From a virus (lineage: Monodnaviria > Loebvirae > Hofneiviricota > Faserviricetes > Tubulavirales > Inoviridae), in IMG/VR virus record IMGVR_UViG_2609459832_000001, positions 1 to 8,258 of that record: a stretch of DNA of 8,258 nt. One strand, 5' to 3'. The notes below the pieces were generated by a model. The model saw nothing but the letters and a program-made list of their open reading frames with translations. It was not told the origin of the DNA and ran no database searches. Positions 1 to 8,258 of the stretch are shown piece after piece (position 1 is the first letter of the stretch; each line of letters starts with the position of its first letter). A program made the position numbers and the translations under genes.

Positions 1-215
1 AAAAAAGAAAGCGTCTTATAGCCAGGGAAAGTTATAAGACGCTCCGGAAAAGCCAGGGAATTATAGGAGGCACGTCTCAACCAATGTTATGTCCGTCTCA
101 GCATGTACCATGCCCACTGCTACATAACAGGGTGCGAAAATCATAACGAGTAAAACATTACCGCCGATAACACATCAGGGCCTGTGTTTGAAAATTCCGG
201 CTCAAAAACGGCCTG
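1..215. repeat. Copy A of a ~260-bp repeat unit; a diverged second copy (B) lies at 7953-8208. Shared blocks include aaagaaa(g/a)cg(t/c)cttata..gggaaagttataa at the left end and ttgaaaattccggctcaaaa(a/g)acggcct at the right end.
   Basis: Direct comparison of 1-215 with 7953-8208: conserved blocks at both ends, a 10-bp-stem hairpin at 11-42 (gcgtcttata / tataagacgc), and two CGTCTCA motifs 21 bp apart (73-79, 94-100; in copy B 8032-8038, 8053-8059). Confidence 0.7.
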
Positions 216-436
216 TCAGTCATCAATTTCATCAAACGACTTCATCACTGACTGTCCGACTCACGTCTTGCGCCGTTCGTCTCGGTGACTGCCCGCTAAA
301 AGGCGGTCTGGCAGGCGGCGCGCTGCGCTGTTTCCTGCTGCTCTGTCATCTCTCCCCGGTTTCGGCGGGCTGACATCTGCGTCACATGAAACTTCATCAT
401 GCCGCCTTACATGTCCTGACGGACATCATCACACAC

Positions 437-1657
437 TCAGACCCGCCGGGCCTGAAGAACGACGATGATATCGGTTTTCGCACGTTCATCAGAGTCTGAA
501 CCAAACACATCCGGCAGAAATGAAAGCCCTGTCCGCGCCTTTGATGTCTTGTTCTCCGCCAGTCCGCCCAGCACAATGATATCACCGTCATTCAGACTCA
601 CCGACGTGGACACCTCGCGCTTTATCAGCGTTGGCGTGTTATTCACCCCCGTATCCGTTTTTGCAAAGTTACTCAGCTGCTGAACGATATCCAGACCTAT
701 CACATCCTGCGTCACGGTGGGTTTTACCCGAAAAATAGCCCCGCTGCTGCGGTATTCCACGGACTGCACCGGAACCTTATCCTGCCATGACACCGATGAC
801 AGAACCGGCACATCAGACCCCACGCTGAAAACCGCCTCCTTACCGGAGATAACGCGCAGACGTGGCGAACTGACCACCTGAAAACGGCTGTCTGTCCTGA
901 ATAACTCATACATTGCATCAACAGACCCCGTGCTGAGACGAATAAAGTTATCCAGCCCCGATGCGCTGCTCATGGTGATACTGAAACGCCCGGACAAAAG
1001 CTCTGCAGCCAGCGCCAGACCTGAACCGTTACGCTCACTGGTCTGGACCTCAAACACATACCCGGCAACCGAAACCTCCTGTGCCCTGACGTCAATCTGC
1101 GGCAGAAGCTGCCGGACAAGCTCCACTTCCCGGGCCGTTCCCCGGAACACAAACACATCCCCGGATGCACTGATGAACCGGGTACCACTGCTGACCGCCT
1201 GCCATGTCTGCTCACCGTTTGCCCCCTGAACCGGCTGTTGTGCGGCCGGAAGCTGACCCAGACCGGAAAGCGCCTGATGCAGATACTCCACTGTCCGGTA
1301 ACGGGGCGTGTAAACAAGGGATTTCAGCGGCTCCTCTGGTGCGGCAGGTGTATGACTGTAAATATAATCAACGCCCTTTTTACGGCTTATCCTGATATTC
1401 ATATTACCGAGATAACGGGTAATAAATTCCCGTTCATCGATATCCGGTGAAATATGCAGCGTGACGGCCCGCGGGTCATTGACCAGTTCAGGGGCCAGCA
1501 TGAACGGTGTTTTCAGGACTTCCGTCCAGAGCAGCGTCACCGCATCAGGCAGGCTCATGCGGTTAATATCCAGTTCCGTCCCGGCTGAAAACGACGGCAG
1601 CGGGAATAACAGCGCCATTGCAGGCAGCACCGGGAGAAGTAATTTTCTGATATTCAT
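437..1657 (-). CDS. Filamentous-phage secretin (pIV-like outer-membrane export channel)
   Basis: 406-aa ORF with an N-terminal signal-like segment (MNIRKLLLPVLPAMALLFPLPSFSA) and a C-terminal secretin-like region (VSLNDGDIIVLGGL...SFLPDVFGSDSDERAKTDIIVVLQARRV). It is the last gene of an Ff-order cluster, starting 10 nt after the gI stop. ATG at 1657-1655, TGA at 439-437. Confidence 0.85.
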   Translation of the reverse strand: MNIRKLLLPVLPAMALLFPLPSFSAGTELDINRMSLPDAVTLLWTEVLKTPFMLAPELVNDPRAVTLHISPDIDEREFITRYLGNMNIRISRKKGVDYIYSHTPAAPEEPLKSLVYTPRYRTVEYLHQALSGLGQLPAAQQPVQGANGEQTWQAVSSGTRFISASGDVFVFRGTAREVELVRQLLPQIDVRAQEVSVAGYVFEVQTSERNGSGLALAAELLSGRFSITMSSASGLDNFIRLSTGSVDAMYELFRTDSRFQVVSSPRLRVISGKEAVFSVGSDVPVLSSVSWQDKVPVQSVEYRSSGAIFRVKPTVTQDVIGLDIVQQLSNFAKTDTGVNNTPTLIKREVSTSVSLNDGDIIVLGGLAENKTSKARTGLSFLPDVFGSDSDERAKTDIIVVLQARRV

Positions 1658-1666
1658 ATTCTGTCC

Positions 1667-2923
1667 CTATGGTGTGGTGAGAGAAACGGACATCCCCCCG
1701 GCACCGCTGCCGGACGAACGCGACGGGGAAGGTTCACTGCCTGACCCGCTGTGAAACGTGATGTGTTCGCCATCCAGTTCCAGTACAGTAAGCAGCCCTT
1801 CATACGGCAGTTCACTGCGCACAAGCCGCGTGACGTTGCTGTTACTGCGCAGAATAAAAACCCCCTGCCCGTTACCGTCACGCATATGACCGGAAAGCCG
1901 CCAGACACGGGAAAGCGGCAGTTCTGCCGGAGATGCGACCTGTGGTACAGGCGGCGCTTTTTCAGTGGTGATTACCTGTGGTGGTGCCTGCATGACCGTT
2001 GCAGCCGGCTCATCAGGTGTGCCGGAGAAAAAATCCAGCACAAGACGTCCCCAGAACCAGAAAAACAGGCCACCCACCACAACGGACAACAGTTTTTTAC
2101 GGCGCGCCTGTTGCTGCTCCTTTCGTTCCTCTGCCGTGAAGGTCTGCGACTCCCCTTTCTCCTGCCGCTCACGCAGCCGCCGGAACTGCCGGAGGGTTCT
2201 GCCGGGCAACAGAGAATACATGGCGCGCATATCACAGACCCGCTGATGCTCACCCGTTCCGAGCAGTTCCATTCCGTCATCAAACACCATGTTCGTCGGA
2301 TGGATACCGTAAAAGGACGGCGCATAAAAAACGCGGGATTCATTGGGACGGGAATTCGCCCGGGGAACACCGATATAAATTTTTGCCGAAATCAGGTGCG
2401 GCAGAAGCCCTTTCCGGCTGCCCGTATCGCCAAACTTATCCGGCATGCAGAGTTCCAGAATATCGGACACGACCGGGACACGAATACGATCAAGACGACG
2501 ACAGCGGACAATCAGCTCCCCCGTGGATTTAAATATTTTGCTGTCAACGGCGGATTCATCCTGCACCTGAATATAAACATCCCAGCCCAGTTTCCCGGAC
2601 TGTACAAACCATTTGTAATATTCCAGGTATTCCCGGCCGGAAGATGTGCCGTTAAGCCATGTTCCGACCTCATCCAGAAATAACGCACCAAACCGCTCCT
2701 TCTCATTTTCATCACAACCACGCCCCAGCGCCCAGAAATCTTCAGGACGAGGACGGGCCGGAAGCACGGTCACCGGATGCGATGAAGCCGGGTCCATTTT
2801 TTCAGTATCAAGCGGGTAATTTGCCGCAATTCTGTGTCCGCGACGGTAAAACTGTTTTGCCACCATGGAGCAGAACAGCCCCTTCCCGTTGCGCATTTTT
2901 CCTGTCACCCAGTAAACAGCCAT
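1667..2923 (-). CDS. Assembly ATPase pI / Zot-like protein, with a single predicted TM segment (LLSVVVGGLFFWFWGRLVLDFF) and a C-terminal extension
   Basis: The N-terminus MAVYWVTGKMRNGKGL matches recalled M13 pI MAVYFVTGKLGSGKTL. Conserved blocks: ALFLDEVGTWL (Walker B-like, M13 LLVLDECGTWF), KLGWDVYIQVQD (M13 KLGWDIIFLVQD), RCRRLDRIRVP (M13 YCRRLDRITLP). ATG at 2923-2921 follows the gVI stop closely. Confidence 0.9.
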   Translation of the reverse strand: MAVYWVTGKMRNGKGLFCSMVAKQFYRRGHRIAANYPLDTEKMDPASSHPVTVLPARPRPEDFWALGRGCDENEKERFGALFLDEVGTWLNGTSSGREYLEYYKWFVQSGKLGWDVYIQVQDESAVDSKIFKSTGELIVRCRRLDRIRVPVVSDILELCMPDKFGDTGSRKGLLPHLISAKIYIGVPRANSRPNESRVFYAPSFYGIHPTNMVFDDGMELLGTGEHQRVCDMRAMYSLLPGRTLRQFRRLRERQEKGESQTFTAEERKEQQQARRKKLLSVVVGGLFFWFWGRLVLDFFSGTPDEPAATVMQAPPQVITTEKAPPVPQVASPAELPLSRVWRLSGHMRDGNGQGVFILRSNSNVTRLVRSELPYEGLLTVLELDGEHITFHSGSGSEPSPSRSSGSGAGGMSVSLTTP

Positions 2924-2930
2924 AACACCC

Positions 2931-7628: not shown

Positions 7629-7802
7629 ATGAACAACTGGAGTGAGATCATATTAGACCTGCTGATGAAGCACATAATAGGTGGCGCCGCGATTGGCGTG
7701 GCTATCCTGTTGTTTGCCGGAGTGATTTTTCCTGTTGCGCTGAAGATAAGGAAGCTCACTGGCAGGAAAAAACAGCGAATAAAACAGAAACTCACCAGTT
7801 AA
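7629..7802 (+). CDS. Small single-pass membrane protein of unknown function (57 aa: MNNWSEIILDLLMKHIIGGAAIGVAILLFAGVIFPVALKIRKLTGRKKQRIKQKLTS)
   Basis: Hand-translated and absent from the ORF track (under 60 aa). Strong SD AAGGGGAAGA immediately upstream of the ATG at 7629. One hydrophobic helix followed by a highly basic tail. Stop TAA at 7800-7802, 3 nt before the dif-like palindrome. Confidence 0.45.
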   Translation: MNNWSEIILDLLMKHIIGGAAIGVAILLFAGVIFPVALKIRKLTGRKKQRIKQKLTS

Positions 7803-7804
7803 GG

Positions 7805-7901
7805 CCAGTGCGCACAATGACGTTATGTGTAAAAAGGCCGCTGCGGTGGAGAGTATCGCAGCGGCCTTTTCAACATAACGTGTAACACATTATGCGCACT
7901 G
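7805..7901. other. Candidate attP: two inverted dif-like XerC/XerD recombination sites flanking a GC-rich hairpin (ggccgctgcg / cgcagcggcc)
   Basis: Left arm agtgcgcacaa-tgacg-ttatgtgtaaa. Right arm (reverse complement) agtgcgcataa-tgtgttacacg-ttatgttgaaa. Compare recalled E. coli dif GGTGCGCATAA-TGTATA-TTATGTTAAAT. The arms are inverted about the stem-loop at 7836-7869 and have central regions of unequal length, as in CTXphi-type attP, which forms a forked hairpin in ssDNA. Confidence 0.7.
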
Positions 7902-7952
7902 GCGTTGTGGTAGCTGAATTAAGGTGTCCGTGTGGGTACACAAACCCGGGAG
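7899..7952. repeat. ~50-bp direct repeat, copy 1 (ctggcgttgtggtagctgaattaaggtgtccgtgtgggtacac...gggag); copy 2 lies at 8209-8258
   Basis: Near-identical strings at 7899-7952 and 8209-8258 with a few substitutions. Copy 1 directly abuts the outer XerC-like arm of the dif-like palindrome. Confidence 0.7.
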
Positions 7953-8208
7953 TAAAAAAAGAAAACGCCTTATAACCTGGGAAAGTTATAAAGCGTCCCG
8001 GAAAATCCAGAAATGGATACAATGAAATATCCGTCTCAGTCAACGTAATTTACGTCTCAATCAACGTGATATACGGCCTTAACTGACATTATGTGTCTAC
8101 TACCTACTCACCCTCACATAGATGAGCAGCAAGACTATAACAAGTAAACATTACGGCGGATAACACCTGCAGACCTCTTGTTGAAAATTCCGGCTCAAAA
8201 GACGGCCT
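7953..8208. repeat. Copy B of the ~260-bp repeat unit (diverged homolog of 1-215)
   Basis: Shares the left-end block, the paired CGTCTCA motifs 21 bp apart (8032-8038, 8053-8059) and the right-end block ttgaaaattccggctcaaaagacggcct with copy A. Confidence 0.7.
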
Positions 8209-8258
8209 CTGGCGTTGTGATGGCTGAATTGAGATGTTCGTGTGGGTACACCGGGAAG
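8209..8258. repeat. ~50-bp direct repeat, copy 2 (ctggcgttgtgatggctgaattgagatgttcgtgtgggtacaccgggaag), truncated by the window end
   Basis: Matches 7899-7952 apart from a few substitutions and a short indel. Confidence 0.7.

What the first reader, a model, noticed from the sequence alone, without database searches (positions are those of the whole stretch)
1..8258. Phage bracketed by a tandem ~310-bp repeat array: insertion junction inferable from the sequence
In copy B the block ...ggctcaaaagacggcct runs straight into the 50-bp repeat (ctggcgttg...) at 8208/8209. In copy A the same block (...ggctcaaaaacggcctg, ending at 215) is instead followed by phage DNA, and ctggcgttg... only reappears at 7899, directly after the dif-like palindrome. 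So about 216-7898 (roughly 7.7 kb, all phage genes plus attP) behaves as an insertion into one unit of a (50-bp + 260-bp) tandem repeat. Alternatively the repeats are phage end-sequences of a tandem prophage array with a diverged neighbour, as in CTX/RS1. Either way it defines the element boundaries.
Basis: seen in the sequence. Interest (0 to 1): 0.65.

Follow-up and report, generated by a model that had tools for sequence, protein, structure and literature searches.

The report
Two stacked filamentous prophages at dif
The repeats at both ends of this window are the non-coding "left ends" of two different filamentous prophages stacked head-to-tail at the E. coli dif site, not a host repeat that a phage inserted into; this is an ordinary CTX-like prophage array.

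Summary
The repeat is real: 1-215 matches 7955-8208, and the ~50-nt leader at 7899 recurs at 8209. Blocks are 82-88% identical and whole units about 71%. The main interpretation, a phage inserted into a host (50+260) repeat, is refuted. The unit occurs in only 30 of 5,426 complete E. coli genomes. The phage-free site is a bare dif with no unit. In the single prophage of E24377A both units lie on the same side, between dif and gene IV.

The window is 100% identical to contig JHDP01000030.1 (GCA_000601275.1). There it is a slice of an array: dif | 147-nt stub | 465-nt gene-less stub | the window's phage | a second phage. Window 7900-8258 is the left end of phage 2, which is 99.8% identical to the E24377A prophage.

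The right boundary is confirmed: it is the XerC arm at 7890-7900. The proposed left boundary at 215/216 is not a junction. The true one lies about 50 or 663 nt upstream of the window.

Each unit carries an intrinsic terminator and unit-specific 21-nt iterons. Any function beyond termination is unknown.

The parts
1..215 (-). Gene-IV-proximal 'alpha' 260-unit of the window's own phage (phage 1). It holds a terminator hairpin (arms 11-20 and 33-42, with the T-run read on the - strand over 1-10) and an iteron at 73-87.
   Evidence: It clusters with the proximal units of other prophages.
216..436 (-). Conserved non-coding stretch just downstream of gene IV ('phL'). It is GC-rich, with a ~95-nt imperfect hairpin on the gene-sense strand. 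By position it is a candidate packaging signal (inference only).
   Evidence: It is 96% conserved in relatives. Fold z-score is -2.1. The packaging-signal role rests only on the Ff gene order.
437..5581 (-). Morphogenesis genes plus pV. pIV secretin 437-1657, pI/Zot 1667-2923, pVI-position ORF 2931-3290, pIII 3293-4618, pVIII-position ORF 4674-4949, two small ORFs at 4970-5128 and 5131-5307, pV ssDNA-binding protein 5309-5581.
   Evidence: ORFs. Pfam matches to Secretin, Zot, Phage_Coat_A and Phage_DNA_bind. Gene calls.
5221..7503 (.). Exchangeable replication and regulation module, lower in GC (0.34-0.46). It holds pV, If1-like pII (5595-6722, - strand) and an HTH repressor (6906-7394, + strand). 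E24377A has a Rep_trans module here instead.
7393..7454 (.). A 62-nt block that is 97% identical to phage If1's major intergenic region, while gene II is only 76% identical. Candidate (+)-strand origin (inference).
7629..7802 (+). A 57-aa ORF with no Pfam match; its hydrophobic stretch is my own reading of the translation. It is conserved next to attP in all relatives.
7801..7906 (-). attP: two inverted dif-like sites (site 1 about 7806-7832, site 2 about 7872-7900). They fold into a ~100-nt hairpin with a 6-nt bulge between the XerC and XerD arms. The G+C-rich tip at 7832-7870 also looks like a terminator.
   Evidence: (I2, I13, I23).
7890..7900 (-). XerC-binding arm (AGTGCGCATAA on the - strand). 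This is the junction between phage 1 and phage 2. From sequence alone the crossover can only be placed within 7887-7899.
   Evidence: E24377A junctions, XerC-arm map, and 100% identity of 7887-8258 to the E24377A left end.
7901..7954 (-). Leader (the '50-bp repeat', copy 1). These are the first bases of the neighbouring prophage (phage 2).
7955..8208 (-). Distal 'beta' 260-unit of phage 2. Terminator hairpin at 7962-7999 on the - strand. 21-nt iterons at 8026-8075 (2.4 copies).
8209..8258 (-). Leader copy 2 of phage 2. In the source contig it continues into phage 2's proximal alpha unit and gene IV, outside the window.

Best explanation
The window is a slice of a chromosomal array of Xer-dependent (IMEX) filamentous prophages at the E. 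coli dif site. In the source contig the order is: ydeQRST-type fimbrial operon, then host dif, a 147-nt stub, a 465-nt gene-less stub (leader, 260-unit, partial gene-IV-distal DNA, attP''), phage 1 (7,951 nt), phage 2, then the contig end. Each boundary is a co-oriented XerC arm. The window starts about 50 nt inside phage 1 and ends 359 nt inside phage 2. Every element of this group begins, right after the XerC arm, with a short leader and one to three ~260-nt non-coding units that run up to the end of gene IV. Every element ends with a hairpin attP. The 'bracketing' repeats are therefore phage 1's own proximal unit (1-215) and the first unit and a half of phage 2 (7901-8258). Inferred mechanism, by analogy with CTXphi: the viral strand folds its two inverted dif-like sites into a hairpin. 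XerC exchanges one strand pair with dif, and replication fixes the product. This leaves a new dif on the XerD side and the unfolded attP on the other side, so later arrivals stack at the new dif. Shown here: the array layout, the junction sequences, that the units are phage-borne, the hairpin, and the terminator structure. Inferred: integration as ssDNA, and what the units do beyond terminating the gene II-to-IV transcripts. The extra units and stubs are most likely relics of deleted or recombined array members that are now inherited with the phage.
For: The window is 100% identical over 8,258 nt to L008 (GCA_000601275.1, JHDP01000030.1), with the flanks described above. Four co-oriented XerC arms are spaced 147, 465 and 7,951 nt apart. 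Phage 2's left end is 99.8% identical over 904 nt to the E24377A prophage. In E24377A's single prophage, attL is a near-perfect dif running straight into leader-260-leader-260-gene IV. Its attR is the intact attP hairpin running straight into hipA-side host DNA. The reconstructed empty site is intact in 3,364 genomes. The unit occurs in only 30 of 5,426 genomes and on a free circular 9.6-kb phage record. Unit number is 1, 2 or 3 in otherwise similar single prophages. Units cluster by position, not by genome. The hairpin plus T-run is kept in 22 distinct copies. The outermost base of the XerC arm is G (host) at attR of single prophages and A (phage) at attL and at internal junctions. That places the exchange at or inside the arm/central-region boundary. 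The layout matches the CTXphi scheme in PMC3442271, Figure 1C legend.
Against: The phage 1 to phage 2 join is documented only in a draft contig that ends 535 nt after the window. No complete genome shows exactly this pair of neighbours. ssDNA and dsDNA integration give the same product, so the CTX-type step is not proven. It is unresolved whether phage 1 starts at the nearest XerC arm (about -50) or at dif (about -663, stubs included). The 8,600-nt period in UTME-13 favours the latter. No function for the non-terminator parts of the unit was demonstrated. RNAalifold found no conserved structure there.
Confidence: 0.85

Rival explanations
1. One reading: a host (50+260)-bp tandem repeat array pre-existed at this locus, and the phage (216-7898) inserted into one unit.
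For: Within the window alone, the 260 to 50 junction at 8208/8209 looks like an 'uninterrupted' version of 215/216 plus 7898/7899.
Against: The empty site has no unit. The unit is present in only 30 of 5,426 genomes. In five loci read in detail it sits beside phage genes. Single prophages have all units on the dif side and none on the hipA side. A free circular phage record carries two units. There is no dif-like or other recombination site at 215/216.
Confidence: 0.02
2. The window is one complete, circularly permuted phage genome (or an exact unit of a homogeneous tandem array) with an internal two-unit duplication, so that 8258 joins 1.
For: The circularised junction aligns as a single HSP in a free circle (L001) and in a tandem array (L003). 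E24377A-type phages do have leader-260-leader-260.
Against: In the identical source contig, position 1 is preceded by a different leader and attP'', not by 8258. Position 8258 is followed by a unit only 85% identical to 1-215. The single HSPs reflect homology (83-86%), not identity.
Confidence: 0.04
3. The phage 1 to phage 2 join is a draft-assembly chimera, made through the near-identical attP/ORF57 region that both phages share.
For: The source is a draft contig that stops inside the repeat region. attP is 100% identical between the two phage types.
Against: Complete genomes show the same kind of heterogeneous arrays with attP-to-leader junctions: UTME-13 has three different prophages, and JNE23-001 has a mosaic second left end. 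Both phage types would still have to be present at dif in this strain.
Confidence: 0.07
4. The leader+260 units are functional cis-acting modules that are kept in multiple copies. They could be Xer accessory sequences on the XerC side (as in cer/psi), a (-)-strand origin, or sites for an unknown iteron-binding protein. On this view the 465-nt stub is a gene-less hitchhiking mini-IMEX rather than debris.
For: Units always abut the XerC side of a Xer site. Conserved blocks and unit-specific 21-nt iterons persist although alpha and beta units are only about 70% identical. The alpha/beta positional types are conserved across phages. The stub has its own complete hairpin attP and is repeated with the phage in UTME-13.
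Against: Unit number varies from 1 to 3 among close relatives, so extra copies look dispensable. My visual inspection found no ARG-box-like palindrome. No conserved hairpins were predicted other than the terminator. The stub is never found without the phage and appears to lack the candidate (+) origin.
Confidence: 0.15

Closest known systems
CTXphi / RS1 prophage arrays of Vibrio cholerae (CTX-type IMEX)
   Same: attP is made of two inverted dif-like sites that fold into a bulged hairpin. There is a new dif on one side and the unfolded attP on the other side and between copies. Heterogeneous head-to-tail arrays occur at dif. The crossover is at the XerC arm (PMC3442271).
   Different: The host is E. 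coli. The phage has an Ff/If1-like gene set with its own pIV secretin, plus pV and G2P-type pII. The small neighbours here are gene-less stubs, not RS1-like elements with rst genes. There is no toxin cargo. ssDNA integration has not been shown here.
CUS-1phi / YpfPhi and UPphi dif-integrated filamentous prophages of Enterobacterales
   Same: Same host group, same dif locus, tandem and heterogeneous arrays, and hybrid formation between neighbours (PMC7307601; PMC3442271).
   Different: I did not compare sequences with CUS-1, YpfPhi or UPphi901. The UPphi paper does not use the term attP and does not describe intergenic repeat units. The only hit in the phage collection was If1, and only for the replication module.
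Escherichia phage If1 (Infulavirus), a non-integrating Ff-like inovirus
   Same: Gene II is 76% identical at the DNA level, and a 62-nt intergenic block is 97% identical. The gene order is the same: II-V-VII/IX-VIII-III-VI-I-IV.
   Different: At blastn sensitivity, If1 shows no match to the attP/repeat-unit region or to the morphogenesis module. Only the window's replication module is If1-like.
Ff intergenic region (packaging signal, (-) origin, (+) origin) and miniphage-type duplications
   Same: Non-coding cis-acting DNA lies after gene IV. Duplication of intergenic segments is known from my own knowledge of Ff miniphages.
   Different: No sequence similarity was found. No conserved hairpins were found in the unit apart from the terminator. 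The candidate (+) origin lies elsewhere, at 7393-7454.

Membership tests
CTX-type IMEX (Xer-dependent integrative filamentous phage with hairpin attP) | [quoted passage not shown] | tested here: met
   7801-7906 folds into a ~100-nt hairpin with a 6-nt bulge between the arms. Two further attP variants (74% identical) keep the same architecture.
CTX-type IMEX (Xer-dependent integrative filamentous phage with hairpin attP) | The prophage lies at dif. A new dif flanks one side, and inverted attP2/attP1 flank the other side and sit between copies. | tested here: met
   E24377A, RM14721 and Sx181-0-1 single prophages and the source array. Layout as in PMC3442271, Figure 1C legend.
CTX-type IMEX (Xer-dependent integrative filamentous phage with hairpin attP) | The XerC-cleaved ('top') strand of the attP site lies on the packaged (+) strand | tested here: inconclusive
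   AGTGCGCATAA followed by the spacer lies on the window's - strand, the sense strand of all structural genes. That this strand is the packaged one is assumed from Ff, not shown.
CTX-type IMEX (Xer-dependent integrative filamentous phage with hairpin attP) | Integration of ssDNA by a single XerC-catalysed strand exchange, with no phage integrase | not testable with these tools
   No ORF scanned against Pfam matched an integrase or recombinase family. The 11-nt spacer of site 2 in duplex form argues against a canonical dsDNA substrate.
   The empty site (host, dif, host) is intact in 3,364 genomes with no unit. The unit is in only 30 of 5,426 genomes.
   In E24377A, RM14721 and Sx181-0-1 all units are on the dif side. 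The hipA side joins attP directly to host DNA.
Inoviridae, Ff-like gene set | pII (G2P), pV ssDNA-binding protein, pIII, pI/Zot and pIV secretin in canonical order on one strand | tested here: met
   Pfam matches to G2P_X_C/Phage_CRI, Phage_DNA_bind, Phage_Coat_A, Zot and Secretin.
RS1/TLC-type satellite | Its own replication or regulatory genes (rstR/A/B/C, or the TLC genes including XafT) | tested here: not met
   The 147-nt and 465-nt elements consist of non-coding blocks homologous to the phage's leader, 260-unit, gene-IV-distal DNA and attP. No gene is called in them.
Rho-independent terminator (within each 260-unit) | A G+C-containing hairpin directly followed by a T-run on the transcribed strand, with the stem kept across homologues | tested here: met
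   Scan hit at 7999-7962 on the - strand. An 11-bp stem is kept in essentially all 22 distinct copies, with G-C/A-T and C-G/T-A switches. Termination activity itself was not tested.
cer/psi-type Xer accessory sequences | About 180 bp on the XerC side carrying ArgR (ARG box) or ArcA sites plus PepA binding | tested here: inconclusive
   Position on the XerC side is met. Visual inspection found no convincing ARG box or ArcA repeat. PepA binding cannot be judged from sequence.

The most novel reading that the evidence does not exclude
The leader+260 units would be selected cis-acting modules rather than relics. For example, they could act as XerC-side accessory sequences that let directly repeated dif/attP sites in an array recombine and release a phage circle, or as iteron-bound replication or packaging sites. 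The 465-nt element, bounded by XerC arms and carrying its own hairpin attP, would then be a gene-less mini-IMEX that propagates by riding with the phage.
Probability: 0.12. Interest if true: 0.6.

Novelty: new member of a known kind. Interest (0 to 1): 0.27.

Why it matters
The main value is corrective. The window's ends are cut points inside two different prophages, so any downstream annotation that takes 216-7898 as 'the element' would be wrong at the left end. It would also assign 359 nt of a neighbouring phage to this one. Beyond that, the locus is a clean E. coli example of CTX-style stacking at dif, and it has three features worth a specialist's look. First, three hairpin-attP variants share one architecture. 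Second, interchangeable replication modules sit on one morphogenesis/attP backbone. Third, the non-coding left end accumulates 1-3 diverged units and gene-less stubs bounded by XerC arms. That third feature gives a readable record of past integration and deletion events.

Tried and rejected
1) A circular-genome reading. After I concluded that the window was a permuted circle. The exact source contig showed that the cross-junction alignments reflected homology, not identity, so I withdrew it.

2) Rfam, at E-value up to 1, found nothing in the window.

3) A motif scan (AAACATTAYSGCNGATAAC) of viral and genome collections. Only 1 of 115 fetched loci (L016, IMG/VR) held a real unit; the rest were chance hits. 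Because it required one exact degenerate motif, it cannot exclude diverged units in other species.

4) The unit profile found no match in If1, and the unit had no blastn hit in the phage collection.

5) TRF does not detect the ~310-nt period.

6) A sigma-70 promoter scan gave no excess over shuffled sequence and no hit in the units.

7) No dif-like site was found at the 260-to-leader junction (8208/8209) or at 215/216. The junctions share only a CTG microhomology, so a Xer-mediated origin of the attP-less duplication is not supported.

8) An exact-protein look-up of pII found nothing.

9) The Xanthomonas packaging-signal work places the signal beside the origin in those phages and does not transfer to this Ff-like phage.

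
Full report
**Observation.**
- A ~260-nt block at 1-215 recurs at 7955-8208.
- A ~50-nt block starting CTGGCGTTGTG occurs at 7899, directly after a dif-like inverted repeat, and again at 8209, directly after the second 260 block.
- Ungapped blocks are 82-88% identical, with in-window BLAST E-values of 1e-11 to 1e-14.
- Whole units are about 71% identical, with a 35-nt indel.
- The similarity is real, but the units are too diverged for Tandem Repeats Finder to report a 310-nt period.

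**What the window encodes.** The - strand carries an Ff-like inovirus gene set. The evidence is ORFs and Pfam matches to G2P, Phage_DNA_bind, Phage_Coat_A, Zot and Secretin.

| Feature | Coordinates | Strand |
|---|---|---|
| pII | 5595-6722 | - |
| pV | 5309-5581 | - |
| small coat-position ORFs | 4970-5307 | - |
| pVIII-position ORF | 4674-4949 | - |
| pIII | 3293-4618 | - |
| pVI-position ORF | 2931-3290 | - |
| pI/Zot | 1667-2923 | - |
| pIV secretin | 437-1657 | - |
| HTH repressor | 6906-7394 | + |
| 57-aa ORF | 7629-7802 | + |

Positions 7801-7906 hold two inverted dif-like sites. They fold into a ~100-nt hairpin with a 6-nt bulge between the XerC-type and XerD-type arms.

**Test of the 'insertion into a host repeat' reading.** That is what I found.
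- *Rarity.* The 360-nt unit region (7899-8258) matches only 30 of 5,426 complete E. coli genomes. It has no match in the phage collection.
- *Free circle.* A 9.6-kb circular record, pJNE25-005_3, is a phage genome plus an IS. It carries an intact attP, then two units, then gene IV.
- *Single prophage.* ETEC E24377A has one prophage between ydeQRS and hipBA.
  - Its left junction reads host ...ATTTAACATAATATACATTATGCGCAC|TGGCGTTGTGG. That is a near-perfect dif running straight into leader-260-leader-260-gene IV.
  - Its right junction is the intact attP hairpin running straight into host DNA...CATTATGCGCAC|CAGTATAAACC, with no unit.
- *Empty site.* Joining the two host flanks gives a 182-nt empty site. 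It is found at 80% coverage or more in 3,364 genomes, and the top hits are 100% identical.

Both units are therefore phage DNA lying on one side of the crossover.

**A wrong turn, corrected.** The circularised window junction aligned as one piece in the free circle and in a tandem array. From that I first concluded that the window was a permuted circular genome. An exact-protein look-up then found a draft E. coli contig, GCA_000601275.1 JHDP01000030.1, that is 100% identical to all 8,258 bases. Its flanks show the window is not a circle.

Upstream of position 1, reading towards the host:
- a different leader;
- a second-type hairpin, attP'';
- a partial copy of the gene-IV-distal DNA;
- another 260-unit;
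- a further hairpin, attP';
- 36 nt of the '50' leader;
- the host dif.

Downstream of 8258:
- another 260-unit, only 85% identical to 1-215;
- the end of a second phage's gene IV;
- the contig end.

**The array.** Four co-oriented XerC arms (TTATGCGCAC) delimit the elements:

dif | 147 nt | 465 nt | 7,951 nt (the window's phage) | phage 2.

- Phage 2's first 904 nt are 99.8% identical to the E24377A prophage.
- Window 7887-8258 is 100% identical to the left end of that prophage.
- The right boundary at 7898/7899 is right, within the 13 nt (7887-7899) that are identical between attP and dif.
- The 215/216 'boundary' is only the point where homology between a proximal unit and a distal unit ends.
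- Phage 1's real left end is outside the window, about 50 nt upstream at the nearest XerC arm, or 663 nt upstream at dif if the two stubs belong to it.
- UTME-13 repeats stub-stub-phage with an 8,600-nt period, which favours the second option.

**Mechanism.** The layout is the one given for CTXphi: a new dif on one side, and inverted attP2/attP1 on the other side and between copies (PMC3442271).
- A one-base marker supports exchange at the XerC cleavage position. The outermost base of the XerC arm is host-type G at the right junction of single prophages. It is phage-type A at the left junction and at internal junctions.
- The cleavable strand of site 2 lies on the gene-sense strand, which in Ff phages is the packaged strand.
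- Site 2 in duplex form has an 11-nt spacer, while the hairpin form brings the arms together.
- These points fit ssDNA integration but do not prove it. A dsDNA reaction at site 2 would give the same product.

**What the units are.** Among otherwise similar prophages, the number of units between the dif-side junction and gene IV varies:

| Strain | Units | Note |
|---|---|---|
| RM14721 | 1 | |
| E24377A | 2 | |
| Sx181-0-1 | 3 | |
| 16F5M1D1 | 2 | a XerC arm lies between them |

- *Grouping.* The 22 distinct copies cluster by position, not by genome. The types are a gene-IV-proximal 'alpha' type (including window 1-215), a distal 'beta' type (including 7955-8208), a beta' type and a stub type. 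The duplication is therefore old.
- *Linkage.* The units travel with the attP and morphogenesis backbone.
  - The window and E24377A share 1-5220 and 7504-8258.
  - They differ in 5221-7503, which is If1-like G2P here and Rep_trans there.
  - A third Rep type (annotated 'replication endonuclease') occurs in UTME-13 and Sx181-0-1.
- *Origin.* A 62-nt block at 7393-7454 is 97% identical to If1's intergenic region, against 76% for gene II. It is the likelier (+) origin, so the units are probably not the origin.
- *Structure.* The only conserved secondary structure in the unit is an 11-bp hairpin followed by a T-run on the gene strand. It is kept in essentially all copies, with some compensatory changes. 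This is an intrinsic terminator for the II-to-IV operon at the prophage edge.
- *Sequence.* The rest is conserved as sequence. That includes 21-nt iterons (CGTCTCARYCAAYGT) found only in the units, 3 matches against 0.07 expected.
- *Function.* Their function is unknown.
- *The stub.* The 465-nt stub occurs at full length in only 6 complete genomes. All six were also hits for the whole-window phage query.

My best reading is that the extra units and stubs are relics of deleted or recombined array members, inherited with the phage. A cis-acting role (Xer accessory, replication or packaging) remains possible at low probability.

**Comparison and novelty.**
- In operation this is a CTX-type IMEX array.
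- In gene content it is an Ff/If1-like inovirus with its own secretin.
- dif-integrated filamentous prophages in tandem arrays are known in Enterobacterales: CUS-1, YpfPhi and UPphi.
- I found no paper describing this particular group, its hairpin attP or its unit array. I did not compare sequences with CUS-1, YpfPhi or UPphi.
- I rate it a new member of a known kind, of modest interest.

**Caveats.**
- The phage 1 to phage 2 join rests on a draft contig.
- The free 9.6-kb circle is a lower-identity record whose annotation includes a frameshifted IS and fragmented phage genes.

Noticed in passing
L011 (NZ_AP019856.1, E. coli 16F5M1D1) locus 1959-1986: The leftmost Xer site of this single prophage reads AGTGCGCATAA-GACATA-TTATGTTAAAT. 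It has a host XerD arm, but its central region is of the attP'/attP'' type rather than dif's TGTATA. A simple XerC-only exchange does not predict this. It also raises the question of whether this strain's dif at that locus is still functional.
   Followed up: no
window 7393-7454: A 62-nt block just after the repressor gene is 97% identical to phage If1's 'major intergenic region', while gene II is only 76% identical. It contains two short hairpins and is the best candidate for the (+)-strand origin matched to the If1-like pII.
   Followed up: partly
window 5221-7503; L004 9768-12030; L002 2131-4905; L013 8797-11764: One morphogenesis/attP backbone carries at least three unrelated replication and regulation modules: G2P-type pII with pV and an HTH repressor; Rep_trans; and a ~660-aa protein annotated 'replication endonuclease' with TolA-C or DUF2726 neighbours. 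GC drops to 0.34 in the window's module.
   Followed up: partly
L005 (CP099215.1 IncF plasmid) 6151-12497; L006 (pCPWW7-IncF) 3982-4197; E. albertii plasmids (hits H66, H67): Gene-less fragments of this phage group (leader-260-partial phL, half attP, ORF57-attP) sit on large conjugative plasmids. In L005 they lie about 2.4 kb from a dif-like site with 3 mismatches (AGTGCGCATAATCTATCTTATGTTAAAT). This suggests integration into a plasmid Xer site.
   Followed up: partly
window 7832-7870: The G+C-rich tip of the attP hairpin is a perfect 14-bp stem flanked by an A-run and a T-run. It therefore looks like a bidirectional intrinsic terminator, closing the 57-aa ORF on the + strand.
   Followed up: no
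L001 (NZ_AP045060.1, pJNE25-005_3, 9,613 bp circular): A free circular record consists of a related phage genome plus a frameshifted ISEc31. It may be a replicative form captured in a long-read assembly. Many of its genes are annotated as fragments.
   Followed up: partly
window 3900-4000 and 4260-4340 (pIII): pIII contains two Gly/Asn/Asp/Ser-rich low-complexity linkers. TRF reports a 21-nt period at 4293-4333. This is typical of the variable linkers of filamentous-phage attachment proteins.
   Followed up: no
window 8208/8209, 215/216 and the attP-to-leader junctions (L008 reverse-complement 6191, 6656, 14607): All junctions between a 260-unit end or a XerC arm and the following segment share a ...CTG microhomology (GGCCTCTG|GCG, GGCCTG|TCAG, GCACTG|GCG, GCACTG|TCG). 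This may mark how the attP-less unit duplications arose.
   Followed up: no
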